From the NCBI RefSeq assembly GCF_016903815.1, contig NZ_CP069973.1: a DNA stretch of 64,000 nt. One strand, written 5' to 3'. Origin of the DNA: Escherichia coli (GTDB lineage: Bacteria > Pseudomonadota > Gammaproteobacteria > Enterobacterales > Enterobacteriaceae). The position numbers are program-made. Positions 13,601-16,600 of the stretch are shown here, piece by piece (within the stretch, counting starts at the first letter, position 1; the number at the start of each line of letters is the position of its first letter).

Positions 13601-16600
13601 ACATCTTCACCTTCGACCAGTGGGGCGTGGAGCTGGGTAAACAACTGGCGAACCGTATTCTGCCAGAGCTGAAAGATGATAAAGAAATCAGCAGCCACGA
13701 TAGCTCGACCAATGGTCTGATTAACCGCTATAAAGCGTGGCGCGGTTAATTAAATAACCTTAATAAAAATGCCGACGTTATGTCGGCATTTTTTATCAGA
13801 TAAATCCCCTTGTCTGTGATTTAACGGAAATCATGCTGTGAGGTTAATCCTAAAATAGATTTTTAATCATGGTTGATTTCGGAAAATACGTAGGATAATT
13901 ATTTTTGATTTCATTTTAACTTTTTGATTTTTAATCTTATTTATATATAAGTTGAAACTTATATTTGATATTCATTCCAATTATCCTAAAACCCCATCGC
14001 TAATTCCCCACACCGTAATTCGCATGCTTTAGTTGTGTATACTCGATCCCGCCCGAAATGTTTTTGGGTAAATCTCCATTCATTCAATGAAGGGAAATTG
14101 TTATGAAAAAAGTTCTGTATGGCATTTTTGCCATATCTGTGCTTGCGGCGACTTCTGCGTGGGCTGCACCTGTACAGGTGGGCGAAGCAGCAGGGTCGGC
14201 AGCAACGTCGGTTTCGGCGGGGAGTTCCTCCGCGACCAGCGTCAGCACCGTAAGCTCGGCGGTGGGTGTCGCGCTCGCGGCAACCGGTGGCGGTGATGGT
14301 TCTAATACCGGGACCACAACAACCACGACCACCAGTACCCAGTAATAAAGTATGTATCCCCAAAATAATTCGAGTTGCAGGAAGGCGACAAGCGAGTGAG
14401 TCCCCGGGAGCATAGATAACTATGTGACCGGGGTGAACGAGTGCGGTCACCGCATCTGCAGCTTGAAGTATGAAGGGGATTAACCATAACCACACTCCGG
14501 TGTGGTTATTCTGCCCCTCTGGAGAAGAGTCGTGAAGCGACCTGCACTCATTCTTATCTGCCTGCTATTACAGGCCTGTTCAGCCACGACTAAAGAGCTG
14601 GGCAATTCACTGTGGGACAGTCTGTTCGGTACACCAGGCGTACAGCTGACGGATGATGATATTCAAAATATGCCCTACGCCAGCCAGTATATGCAGCTTA
14701 ATGGCGGGCCGCAGTTGTTTGTAGTGCTGGCCTTTGCCGAGGATGGGCAACAAAAATGGGTTACTCAGGATCAGGCCACTCTCGTCACACAACATGGTCG
14801 TCTGGTGAAGACTTTGCTTGGCGGCGACAACCTGATTGAAGTGAATAACCTTGCTGCCGACCCGCTGATTAAACCCGCACAAATTGTTGATGGTGCAACC
14901 TGGACGCGCACGATGGGCTGGACCGAGTACCAGCAGGTACGCTACGCCACCGCACGCTCAGTCTTCAAATGGGATGGCACCGATACCGTCAAAGTCGGCA
15001 GCGATGAATCCCCGGTTCGCGTGCTGGACGAAGAAGTCTCCACCGACCAGGCGCGCTGGCATAACCGCTATTGGATCGACAGCGAAGGGCAAATTCGCCA
15101 GTCGGAACAGTATCTCGGCGCGGATTATTTCCCGGTGAAAACCACTCTCATCAAGGCGGCAAAACAATGATTAAACAAACTATTGTCGCATTGATTTTGA
15201 GTGTGGGGGCGTCATCGGTCTTCGCGGCGGGAACCGTCAAGGTATTCAGCAATGGCAGCAGTGAGGCCAAAACGCTGACGGGGGCAGAGCATTTAATCGA
15301 TCTGGTAGGCCAACCACGGCTGGCAAACAGTTGGTGGCCCGGTGCGGTGATTAGCGAAGAGCTGGCAACGGCGGCAGCATTGCGTCAGCAGCAGGCGTTG
15401 CTGACACGGCTGGCAGAACTAGCCGCAGATTCCAGCGCTGACGATGCCGCCGCCATTAACGCCTTACGCCAGCAAATTCAGGCGTTGAAGGTGACGGGCA
15501 GGCAAAAAATCAATCTTGATCCCGATATCGTCCGCGTTGCCGAACGCGCTAACCCACCGTTGCAGGGCAACTACACGCTGTGGGTCGGACCACCGCCGTC
15601 CACGGTCACGTTGTTCGGGCTTATCAGCCGTCCTGGCAAGCAGCCTTTCACTCCAGGTCGCGACGTGGCGAGCTATCTCTCCGGGCAGAACCTGCTTAGC
15701 GGTGCGGATCGCAGCTACGCGTGGGTGGTTTACCCGGACGGACGCACGCAAAAAGCGCCGGTGGCTTACTGGAACAAGCGTCACGTAGAGCCGATGCCCG
15801 GCAGCATTATTTATGTTGGCCTCGCGGACTCCGTCTGGAGTAAGACGCCTGATGCCCTGAACGCCGACATTCTTCAGACTCTGACGCAGCGGATACCTCA
15901 ATAATGAAAAAAAGACATCTGCTTAGCTTACTGGCGCTGGGCATTAGCACAGCTTGCTACGGCGAAACATATCCTGCGCCCATTGGTCCGTCGCAGTCGG
16001 ATTTCGGTGGCGTAGGATTATTACAAACGCCCACCGCGCGCATGGCGCGGGAAGGGGAGTTGAGCCTCAACTATCGCGATAACGATCAGTACCGTTATTA
16101 CTCAGCTTCAGTGCAACTCTTCCCGTGGCTGGAAACAACGCTGCGCTACACCGACGTGCGCACCCGGCAGTACAGCAGCGTCGAAGCGTTCTCTGGTGAT
16201 CAAACGTATAAAGATAAAGCCTTCGATCTCAAACTGCGTTTGTGGGAAGAGAGTTATTGGCTGCCGCAAGTGGCGGTTGGTGCGCGGGATATCGGCGGTA
16301 CGGGGCTGTTTGATGCGGAATATCTTGTTGCCAGCAAAGCCTGGGGGCCGTTCGATTTCACGCTCGGCCTGGGATGGGGATATCTGGGCACCAGCGGTAA
16401 CGTGAAAAATCCGCTCTGTTCAGCCAGTGACAAATATTGCTATCGCGATAACAGCTACAAACAGGCGGGATCTATCGACGGTAGCCAGATGTTCCACGGT
16501 CCTGCCTCACTGTTTGGCGGCGTGGAATACCAGACGCCCTGGCAACCGCTGCGCCTGAAACTGGAGTATGAAGGCAATAATTATCAGCAGGATTTTGCCG

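What the first reader, a model, noticed from the sequence alone, without database searches (positions are those of the whole stretch)
14346..14531. Two stable hairpins between yjbE and yjbF suggest intra-operon attenuation or processing
The 186-bp spacer between yjbE and yjbF contains GTGACCG-N13-CGGTCAC (about 14423-14452) and AACCACAC-TCCG-GTGTGGTT (about 14490-14509), the latter just before the yjbF GTG start. This could set differential expression of the abundant small YjbE versus the downstream lipoproteins.
Basis: seen in the sequence. Interest (0 to 1): 0.3.

Follow-up and report, generated by a model that had tools for sequence, protein, structure and literature searches.

The report
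ERIC repeat plus conserved yjbE–yjbF hairpin

Summary
Both inverted repeats are in the sequence, but only one is a real hairpin.

**First repeat.** GTGACCG-N13-CGGTCAC (14424-30 / 14444-50) lies inside a full-length ERIC/IRU element (14355-14480). That element matches the published 127-nt E. coli ERIC at 83% without gaps and has a median of 11 matching places per E. coli genome. The small hairpin has pairing probability 0.000, because its left arm is used by the long ERIC hairpin. A 7-bp repeat appears in 11% of shuffles. Only 373 of 5,426 complete E. coli genomes carry this full ERIC. K-12 and 5,033 others have a 73-bp shorter version without the repeat.

**Second repeat.** AUAACCACAC-UCCG-GUGUGGUAU written in full is AUAACCACAC-UCCG-GUGUGGUUAU (14486-14509).
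- It is well beyond chance and occurs once per genome.
- Its stem is identical in 80 Enterobacteriaceae species, Pantoea and Rahnella.
- In Enterobacteriaceae the loop is always UNCG, followed by a U-rich tail.
- It is the ancestral core of a ~63-nt spacer.

It most likely acts as a leaky terminator or 3'-end stabiliser. A 2021 paper cites Ferrières et al. 2007 for yjbE mRNA exceeding yjbFGH mRNA.

**Verdict.** Ordinary and largely already known. The one unexplained point is why both stem arms never change.

The parts
14103..14345 (+). yjbE coding sequence (80 aa, small Ser/Thr-rich protein with a signal peptide). Stop TAA at 14343-45, followed by a second in-frame TAA at 14346-48.
   Evidence: ORF list. 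RefSeq annotation of the identical locus in strain 7/2.
14355..14480 (+). Full-length ERIC/IRU (RU-1) miniature inverted-repeat element. The + strand corresponds to the reverse complement of the published RU-1 sequence. TA dinucleotides flank it at 14355-56 and 14481-82.
   Evidence: Ungapped alignment to positions 1-126 of the 127-nt E. coli RU-1 of PMC2759123, 105/126 identical. 18/22 matches to each ERIC PCR primer. Aligns with copies at yeiS-preT, ybhJ-ybhI and uhpC-uhpT. Median 11 places per E. coli genome. Sub-threshold Rfam matches to V_AS5, Ysr49 and CssrA over the same stretch.
14356..14380 (+). Left terminal inverted repeat of the ERIC. Pairs with 14456-14480.
   Evidence: Inverted repeat I1, 25 nt, 76% complementary. 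Pair probabilities mostly above 0.9.
14456..14480 (+). Right terminal inverted repeat of the ERIC.
14402..14433 (+). Central ERIC hairpin (CCCCGG..GCAUAG-AUAA-CUAUGU..CCGGGG, -21.4 kcal/mol alone).
   Evidence: (I3). Pair probabilities are 0.98 or higher.
14424..14450 (+). It is a repeat private to this ERIC copy and is predicted not to form.
   Evidence: Present in the sequence (I9). Pair probability 0.000, and forcing it costs 15.6 kcal/mol. Absent from the other ERIC copies aligned. A 7-bp repeat occurs in 11% of shuffles.
14374..14445 (+). Internal ERIC segment missing from the common short allele (K-12, E. whittamii and most E. coli). The short spacer is 113-114 nt.
   Evidence: Alignment A1. 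Short allele in 5,033 genomes, long allele in 373.
14486..14509 (+). Conserved intercistronic hairpin: a 10-bp stem AUAACCACAC/GUGUGGUUAU closed by C(UCCG)G, -14.2 kcal/mol. The loop is at 14496-14499.
   Evidence: (I4). Stem identical in 80 species. Longest invariant run in the yjbE-yjbF region. One copy per E. coli genome. Same stem in Pantoea and Rahnella.
14506..14513 (+). U-rich tail UUAUUCUG. Its first four bases also form the base of the stem. It reads UUAUUUUG or UUAUUUCG in most genera and UUAUUUUUUG in Pantoea.
   Evidence: Not called by the consensus terminator scan.
14521..14534 (+). yjbF ribosome-binding site GGAG (14521-24) and GTG start codon (14532-34).
   Evidence: Sequence. 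Conserved GGAGAAGAGTC-GTG in the species alignment. RefSeq start in strain 7/2.
14532..15170 (+). yjbF coding sequence (212-aa lipoprotein). yjbG and yjbH follow with overlapping start and stop codons.

Best explanation
The 186-nt yjbE-yjbF spacer has two unrelated parts.

**1. An ERIC element (14355-14480).** This is a full-length copy of the ERIC/IRU repeat, a roughly 127-bp non-autonomous mobile element. It sits at a TA nine bases after the yjbE stop codon. It is transcribed within the operon mRNA and folds into one long imperfect hairpin (about -64 kcal/mol). The element varies between strains: full length in about 7% of E. coli genomes, internally deleted by 73 bp in most, and absent from most other genera.

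**2. The ancestral hairpin (14486-14509).** This is a single-copy stem-loop, AUAACCACAC-UCCG-GUGUGGUUAU, with a C(UNCG)G cap and a U-rich tail. It ends 22 nt before the yjbF GTG.

**Inferred mechanism.** The hairpin acts on the sense RNA as a leaky intrinsic terminator, as a barrier to 3'-to-5' exonucleases, or both. Transcripts ending at it encode only YjbE and accumulate. A fraction reads through to yjbFGH, which has no room for its own promoter between the hairpin and its start codon. The result is more yjbE than yjbFGH message.

**Role of the ERIC.** It is probably a passenger. It could modulate yjbE mRNA decay, as reported for ERICs in Yersinia.

**Shown versus inferred.** Shown here: the identity of the ERIC, the non-formation of the first hairpin, and the conservation and UNCG pattern of the second hairpin. 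Inferred: termination or stabilisation at the hairpin.
For: **ERIC identity**
- Ungapped 83% match to the published 127-nt RU-1/ERIC.
- Primer matches.
- Family alignment with other copies.
- Median 11 places per genome in 5,425 of 5,426 genomes.
- Terminal inverted repeats and a long hairpin.

**First hairpin not formed:**

**Alleles**
- Long in 373 genomes, short in 5,033.
- The deletion is mapped.

**Second hairpin**
- The ancestral spacer of 60-65 nt in about 60 species consists of little more than this hairpin and the yjbF ribosome-binding site.
- There are 24 consecutive invariant columns apart from the loop N, while flanking codon third positions vary.
- Loops are UUCG in 72 loci, UCCG in 5, UGCG in 3 and UACG in 2. 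Only the free N of UNCG changes, in at least 4 independent lineages. This pattern is specific to the sense strand, which points to an RNA-level role.
- Pantoea and Rahnella have the same stem. Pantoea's tail is U6GU6.
- A 36%-identical gfc-like operon (L095) keeps the hairpin through a fully compensatory inner stem, GUUGC/GCAAC, followed by UAUUUUUG.
- The paralogous gfcA-gfcB spacer of K-12 also has a hairpin followed by U-rich sequence.

**Literature**
- yjbE and yjbF are co-induced by Rcs activation in K-12, so read-through occurs.
- ERICs downstream of genes are reported to affect upstream mRNA decay through RNase E (De Gregorio 2005, as summarised in PMC3184786).
Against: - No 3'-end mapping for this locus could be found. 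The Adams 2021 Term-seq tables have no yjbE entry, and two other datasets are not held.
- The E. coli tail UUAUUCUG is a weak U-tract, and the consensus terminator scan called nothing in 13700-15200.
- Fold-changes of yjbE and yjbF on Rcs induction are nearly equal in K-12 (log2 5.74 against 5.67). This shows read-through but says nothing about the absolute ratio.
- The primary paper (Ferrières 2007) could not be read, so what it says about the hairpin is second-hand.
- A plain terminator does not explain why both arms of the stem never change. The neighbouring pgi terminator in the same genomes changes by compensatory pairs several times.
- Any effect of the ERIC on this operon is untested.
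Confidence: 0.75

Rival explanations
1. One reading: two independent stable hairpins, both acting as attenuators or processing signals within the operon.
For: Both repeats are in the sequence. The first hairpin alone would fold at -12.5 kcal/mol.
Against: - The first hairpin has pair probability 0.000 in context. Its 5' arm is already paired in the central ERIC helix, which is transcribed first.
- It is absent from other ERIC copies and from the allele carried by about 93% of E. coli genomes and by all other genera.
- It is at chance level.
Confidence: 0.04
2. The second hairpin is mainly a sequence-specific recognition site, for an RNA-binding protein, an sRNA, or a DNA-binding dimer on the palindrome TAACCACAC-N4-GTGTGGTTA. 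That partner would set the yjbE:yjbFGH ratio or control yjbF. Terminator-like features would be secondary.
For: - Zero substitutions in 18 stem positions across 80 Enterobacteriaceae, Pantoea and Rahnella, where YjbF is down to 38% identical.
- The pgi terminator in the same loci covaries freely.
- The outer UAACC/GGUUA is kept even where the inner stem is replaced (L095 and L091).
Against: - No candidate partner was identified.
- No complementary stretch of 7 nt or more lies elsewhere in the operon.
- The UNCG-only loop variation and the U-rich tail fit an RNA hairpin or terminator and are not expected for a DNA operator.
- L095 shows the inner stem can be replaced by compensatory pairs.
- No Rfam family matches the hairpin itself.
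Confidence: 0.15
3. In this strain the ERIC is the functionally important part. Its long hairpin is cut by RNase E or RNase III, which uncouples yjbE from yjbFGH or changes yjbE mRNA stability. The long and short alleles would then be expression variants under selection.
For: - ERICs co-transcribed with genes are reported to alter upstream mRNA levels through an RNase E site in the right terminal repeat (De Gregorio 2005, as summarised in PMC3184786).
- The element starts 9 nt after the stop codon.
- The 186-nt long-allele spacer is 100% identical between the window and strain STIN_95, although their yjbF genes are only 96.2% identical.
- ERIC-bearing transcripts have been scored as sRNAs in Vibrio, Yersinia and Shigella.
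Against: - No data exist for this locus.
- Most genera have no ERIC here and most E. coli carry a truncated one, so it is dispensable for operon function.
- ERIC is a selfish repeat with about 11 copies per genome in unrelated contexts.
- The A or B orientation class used in the Yersinia study could not be assigned because that paper is not held.
Confidence: 0.2
4. Neither structure does anything. The ERIC is junk and the second hairpin is a fossil.
For: No direct functional data for either element in this strain.
Against: A 24-nt block invariant across genera whose synonymous sites are saturated cannot be neutral. An insertion in the spacer has a phenotype. The claim may still hold for the ERIC part alone.
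Confidence: 0.03

Closest known systems
ERIC / IRU / RU-1 (enterobacterial repetitive intergenic consensus; Sharples & Lloyd 1990, Hulton et al. 1991, Wilson & Sharp 2006)
   Same: - Length of about 127 bp and an ungapped 83% match to the published E. coli sequence.
- Terminal inverted repeats and a long RNA hairpin.
- TA at both ends.
- Intergenic, co-transcribed position close to a stop codon.
- Multiple dispersed copies.
- Strain-to-strain presence and internal-deletion variants.
   Different: Nothing essential. The right-end TA is ambiguous by one base.
Intercistronic mRNA-stabilising hairpins and leaky terminators that set gene ratios within operons. Examples, from general knowledge: REP in malE-malF (Newbury et al. 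1987), and the hairpins after the pilin genes papA and fimA.
   Same: A stable stem-loop directly after a small, presumably abundant first gene product. Downstream genes depend on read-through. The upstream segment is reported to exceed the downstream mRNA.
   Different: It is a unique, single-copy hairpin, not a REP. Its stem sequence, and not only its structure, is frozen across genera. No 3' ends have been mapped.
C(UUCG)G / UNCG tetraloop hairpins (Tuerk et al. 1988; common in E. coli terminators and phage T4 intercistronic regions)
   Same: C-G closing pair with a UNCG loop in all 82 Enterobacteriaceae sequences. Only the N varies.
   Different: Pantoea (AGUC) and Rahnella (AUCC) keep the stem but not the UNCG loop.
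Canonical Rho-independent terminator
   Same: A core stem with four G-C pairs out of six, a 4-nt loop, a U-rich 3' tail, and an A-rich 5' flank that pairs with the first U residues.
   Different: In E. coli the tail has 5 U in 8 and is interrupted by A and C. The consensus scan did not call it. It cannot terminate fully, because yjbFGH lie downstream without room for a promoter after it.
gfcA-gfcB spacer of the paralogous group 4 capsule operon (E. coli K-12)
   Same: Same gene order: a small Thr-rich protein, then a YjbF-family lipoprotein. A hairpin (CCCGGU...ACCGGG) followed by U-rich sequence lies in the spacer.
   Different: No sequence similarity to the yjbE-yjbF hairpin. The fold of the whole spacer is not significant (z = -1.4).

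Membership tests
ERIC / IRU (RU-1) repeat | Length of about 127 bp, with sequence similarity along the whole element to the E. coli consensus | tested here: met
   Window 14355-14480 aligns without gaps to RU-1 positions 1-126, 105/126 identical (RU-1 sequence from PMC2759123). 18/22 matches to each of primers ERIC2 and ERIC1R.
ERIC / IRU (RU-1) repeat | Imperfect palindrome with terminal inverted repeats that folds into a long hairpin as RNA | tested here: met
   Arms 14356-80 / 14456-80. MFE of the spacer -82.3 kcal/mol, z = -7.5. The element alone folds at -64.1 kcal/mol.
ERIC / IRU (RU-1) repeat | [quoted passage not shown] | tested here: met
   Matches in 5,425 of 5,426 E. coli genomes, median 11 places each. 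Copies at pepB-iscX, yeiS-preT, ybhJ-ybhI and uhpC-uhpT.
ERIC / IRU (RU-1) repeat | TA at the termini and TA target-site duplication | tested here: inconclusive
   TA at 14355-56 and 14481-82. Empty sites in Salmonella and Citrobacter read ...GTT-TA-ACCATAACC, which is compatible with TA duplication. However, the right end is ambiguous by one base, and two T residues of the empty site are missing upstream of the insertion.
ERIC / IRU (RU-1) repeat | Variants with internal deletions, and presence or absence differences between strains and species | tested here: met
   A 73-bp shorter allele in K-12 and 5,033 genomes. No ERIC in about 75 of 80 other species.
Rho-independent (intrinsic) terminator | G+C-rich stem-loop directly followed by a U-tract | tested here: inconclusive
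   Core CCACAC-UCCG-GUGUGG at -9.2 kcal/mol, full stem at -14.2. The tail is UUAUUCUG in E. coli, UUAUUUUG or UUAUUUCG in most genera, and U6GU6 in Pantoea. The consensus scan found none, probably because it extends the stem over the first U residues.
Rho-independent (intrinsic) terminator | Transcript 3' ends at the U-tract, in vivo or in vitro | not testable with these tools
   No yjbE entry in the Term-seq supplements that are held. Other datasets are not held.
Regulated attenuator (switch between terminator and antiterminator) | A mutually exclusive alternative structure, leader peptide or ligand/protein-binding domain upstream of the terminator | tested here: not met
   Inner pairs of the hairpin have p >= 0.99 in the ensemble. 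The only alternative pairing is a weak, A/U-rich 9-nt repeat (I7) that is not conserved. No Rfam riboswitch or leader match.
UNCG-tetraloop hairpin | C-G closing pair, U at loop position 1, C at 3, G at 4, any base at 2 | tested here: met
   UUCG 72, UCCG 5, UGCG 3, UACG 2 among 82 loci. Not kept in Pantoea (AGUC) or Rahnella (AUCC).
Rfam sRNA families V_AS5, Ysr49, CssrA | Score at or above the family's gathering threshold | tested here: not met
   53.5 against 96 bits, 34 against 95, and 31 against 93. The matches reflect shared ERIC sequence, plus a terminal hairpin for Ysr49 and CssrA.

The most novel reading that the evidence does not exclude
The yjbE-yjbF hairpin is more than a generic terminator or stabiliser. 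Both arms of its stem (UAACCACAC/GUGUGGUUA) are unchanged from Escherichia to Pantoea and Rahnella, while a neighbouring terminator covaries freely. This could mark a dedicated, sequence-specific RNA recognition element for an unidentified protein or sRNA. Such a partner would tune the ratio of YjbE to the YjbFGH export machinery, perhaps linking it to envelope-stress (Rcs) signalling.
Probability: 0.15. Interest if true: 0.5.

Novelty: already known. Interest (0 to 1): 0.17.

Why it matters
It corrects a misreading. One of the two "regulatory hairpins" is a piece of a common mobile repeat that most E. coli strains lack at this site. Any model built on it would not carry over to K-12.

The real conserved element explains a published but little-noticed imbalance: yjbE message exceeds yjbFGH message. 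That imbalance affects how transcriptome studies read Rcs-regulated exopolysaccharide genes, and several such papers report yjbE alone.

The natural long, short and empty alleles offer a ready-made test of whether ERIC elements influence expression of flanking genes in E. coli.

Beyond this, the locus is ordinary.

Tried and rejected
- **Rfam scans.** No family reaches threshold in the spacer. The weak hits are ERIC-bearing sRNA models.
- **Consensus promoter and terminator scan.** Nothing was called in the spacer. This is uninformative for the second hairpin because of how the tool defines stem and tail.
- **3'-end data.** The Adams 2021 supplements have no yjbE or yjbF entry. Supplements of Conway 2014 and Dar & Sorek 2018 are not held.
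- **Primary papers not held.** Ferrières 2007, De Gregorio 2005 and Wilson & Sharp 2006. One wrong PMC id was fetched by mistake.
- **Text searches.** yjbE with stem-loop, and yjbEFGH with terminator, gave nothing relevant.
- **The search for homologous proteins.** It returned only close relatives. Distant loci came instead from the representative search followed by contig look-ups.
- **Formal covariation count.** Abandoned because MAFFT misaligned the one covarying sequence, L095. The compensatory stem is read from its individual fold.
- **Long-range partner for the hairpin arms.** None of 7 nt or more in 13750-18100.
- **Second hairpin as a dispersed repeat.** Rejected: one place per genome.
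- **DNA-operator reading of the palindrome.** Considered unlikely because of the UNCG loop pattern and the U-rich tail.
- **The 63-aa ORF on the minus strand over the ERIC (14302-14493).** Treated as a mechanical ORF. ERICs are known to carry such frames (PMC2759123).
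Full report
**Context.** The window is E. coli. The region is 100% identical to strain 7/2. pgi ends at 13749, yjbE is 14103-14345, and yjbF starts with GTG at 14532, followed by yjbG and yjbH. The spacer is 14346-14531, 186 nt.

**Checking the observation.**
- Both inverted repeats are present. GTGACCG 14424-30 pairs with CGGTCAC 14444-50, with a 13-nt gap. ATAACCACAC 14486-95 pairs with GTGTGGTTAT 14500-09, with loop TCCG.
- A perfect repeat of 7 bp or more occurs in 11% of dinucleotide shuffles of the spacer. One of 10 bp or more occurs in 0.15%.
- Positions 14356-14480 form one long imperfect hairpin, with a central helix CCCCGG..GCAUAG/CUAUGU..CCGGGG at 14402-14433. The second hairpin stands alone.
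The inner pairs of the second hairpin have p >= 0.99.

**What the long palindrome is.**
- A blastn search of the spacer against 5,426 complete E. coli genomes found its first about 130 nt in 5,425 genomes, at a median of 11 places each. The whole spacer occurs in only 373 genomes.
- Window 14355-14480 aligns without gaps to positions 1-126 of the published 127-nt E. coli RU-1/ERIC sequence, as its reverse complement, with 105/126 identical.
- The two standard ERIC-PCR primers match 18/22 each.
- Other copies (yeiS-preT, ybhJ-ybhI, uhpC-uhpT) align along the whole element. The ybhJ-ybhI copy carries both primer sequences exactly.
- Rfam gives only sub-threshold matches, to V_AS5, Ysr49 and CssrA, over the same stretch. 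I read these as matches through shared ERIC sequence.
- The CGGTCAC arm is absent from the other copies, so the first hairpin is a private accident of this copy.

**Alleles.**
- K-12 and most E. coli have a 113-nt spacer in which 14374-14445 and one further base are missing. This removes the first hairpin.
- The short allele is in 5,033 genomes and the long allele in 373.
- E. whittamii also has the short form, with the same junction.
- The short form still folds into a smaller hairpin next to the intact second hairpin.

**The second hairpin is the ancestral element.**
- I retrieved yjbE-yjbF spacers from 80 other species of Enterobacteriaceae.
- About 60 of them have a spacer of 60-65 nt. It consists of about 20 variable bases, then TAACCACAC-TNCG-GTGTGGTTA, then TTTTG or TTTCG, then CCCC..GGAGAAGAGTC, then GTG.
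- The stem is identical in all of them.
- In an alignment of 65 distinct sequences, the block TAACCACACT-N-CGGTGTGGTTATT is the longest invariant run. Codon third positions on either side vary.
- The loop is TTCG in 72 loci, TCCG in 5, TGCG in 3 and TACG in 2. It is always UNCG with a C-G closing pair. Only the free N changes, in at least four lineages: Escherichia, S. arizonae, Atlantibacter and Franconibacter.
- This pattern makes sense only on the sense strand as RNA.
- The hairpin occurs once per E. coli genome. The common polymorphism near it lies outside the stem.

**More distant loci.**
- Pantoea (YjbF 46% identical) has the same stem, loop AGUC and tail U6GU6.
- Rahnella (38%) has the same stem and loop AUCC.
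- A gfc-like operon next to wzc (36%, L095) has UAACC-GUUGC-UCAC-GCAAC-GGUUA followed by UAUUUUUG. This is a fully compensatory inner stem.
- A paralogous operon in Superficieibacter (L091) keeps AUAACC...GGUUAUUUUUUG.
- The paralogous gfcA-gfcB spacer in K-12 has an unrelated hairpin followed by U-rich sequence.

**How it most likely works.**
- The hairpin has the form of an intrinsic terminator: a core stem with four G-C pairs out of six, a very stable tetraloop, a U-rich tail, and an A-rich 5' flank. The E. coli tail (UUAUUCUG) is weaker than in most genera, and the simple scan did not call it.
- In the ancestral spacer only about 22 nt, holding the ribosome-binding site, separate the hairpin from the yjbF start. 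No promoter fits downstream of the hairpin, so yjbFGH must depend on read-through. A promoter inside yjbE is not excluded.
- yjbE and yjbF are co-induced to similar degrees by Rcs activation in K-12.
- PMC8208086 states, citing Ferrières et al. [quoted passage not shown] In that Salmonella study only yjbE was scored as induced.
- I therefore infer a leaky terminator and/or a 3'-exonuclease barrier that lets yjbE-only RNA accumulate. This step is inferred. No 3'-end data were found, and the primary paper is not held.

**Role of the ERIC.**
- It begins 9 nt after the stop codon and folds independently of the second hairpin.
- ERICs co-transcribed with genes have been proposed to expose an RNase E site and trigger decay of the upstream mRNA (De Gregorio 2005, as summarised in PMC3184786).
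- Whether that happens here is untested. The orientation class used in that study could not be assigned.
- Most genera have no ERIC at this site and most E. coli have a truncated one. It is therefore dispensable and is best treated as a passenger that may modulate expression.

**What remains unexplained.** In the same loci, the pgi terminator keeps its position and shape but changes its stem through several compensatory pairs, and its loop varies freely. The yjbE-yjbF stem never changes. A plain terminator model does not predict this. A sequence-specific partner is possible, but none was identified, and no complementary site lies in the operon.

**Comparison with what is known, and verdict.**
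- The first hairpin is part of a known repeat family, with all tested membership criteria met except an ambiguous TA duplication.
- The second hairpin works like the classical intercistronic hairpins that set gene ratios within operons. It meets the UNCG-hairpin definition, while terminator membership is inconclusive.
- The expression imbalance it would explain is already in the literature.
- The finding is real in part and misinterpreted in part. Overall it is ordinary.

Noticed in passing
window 13758-13906 (- strand): Rfam match to the enterobacterial sRNA STnc430 (RF02053), 85 bits against a gathering score of 47, E = 6e-14. It lies in the pgi-yjbE intergenic region, antisense to both genes.
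   Followed up: no
L005-L007, L010, L011, L025, L035, L037, L039-L041 (yjbE-yjbF spacers of 107-122 nt): In several Citrobacter, Enterobacter, Lelliottia and Pseudenterobacter species, a different REP-like palindrome (for example GGCCGGGTAAGCG...CACCCGGC) is inserted just downstream of the conserved hairpin, between it and the yjbF ribosome-binding site. The spacer attracts small repeats on both sides of the hairpin.
   Followed up: partly
L029:1314-1500 (Citrobacter sp. Res13-Sevr-PEB04-36): A full-length but diverged ERIC sits at the same position of the yjbE-yjbF spacer as in E. coli (187-nt spacer), on Citrobacter-type flanks. This could be an independent insertion at the same TA or an old shared insertion with many losses.
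   Followed up: partly
window 14346-14531 compared with L003:646-831 (strain STIN_95): The 186-nt long-allele spacer is 100% identical in the two strains, although their yjbF genes are 96.2% identical and the upstream-plus-yjbE segment is 91% identical. The locus is unusually polymorphic: three haplotypes about 4% apart in yjbF. This suggests recent spread of the spacer by recombination, or constraint on it.
   Followed up: partly
L001:1876-1910 and L004 (short alleles) compared with window 14446-14480: The right arm of the short ERIC allele differs from the long allele at 5-6 of 35 positions, while the adjacent flanks are identical. The E. whittamii short allele is intermediate. So the deletion appears to be old, which makes the persistence of the long allele in 7% of E. 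coli genomes puzzling.
   Followed up: partly
window about 13765-13795, and the same position in L001-L083: This strain has a plain terminator hairpin after pgi (AAAAATGCCGACGTTATGTCGGCATTTTTT). K-12 and E. whittamii have REP elements there. Several Citrobacter and Buttiauxella species have an ERIC there (L009, L010, L017, L029, L077, L079).
   Followed up: no
L084:8334-8439 (- strand), E. coli K-12 gfcA-gfcB spacer: The paralogous group 4 capsule operon has its own hairpin (ACCCGGUUGCGAUAUUCGUACCGGG) followed by U-rich sequence after the small first gene. K-12 carries IS1D directly upstream of gfcA.
   Followed up: partly
window 14302-14493 (- strand): A 63-aa ORF with a GTG start runs through the ERIC. 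Its sequence ...SPSCNSNYFG... resembles the translated RU-1 frame printed in PMC2759123. There is no evidence that it is a gene.
   Followed up: no
yjbE-yjbF spacer of E. coli K-12 (literature): [quoted passage not shown]
   Followed up: no
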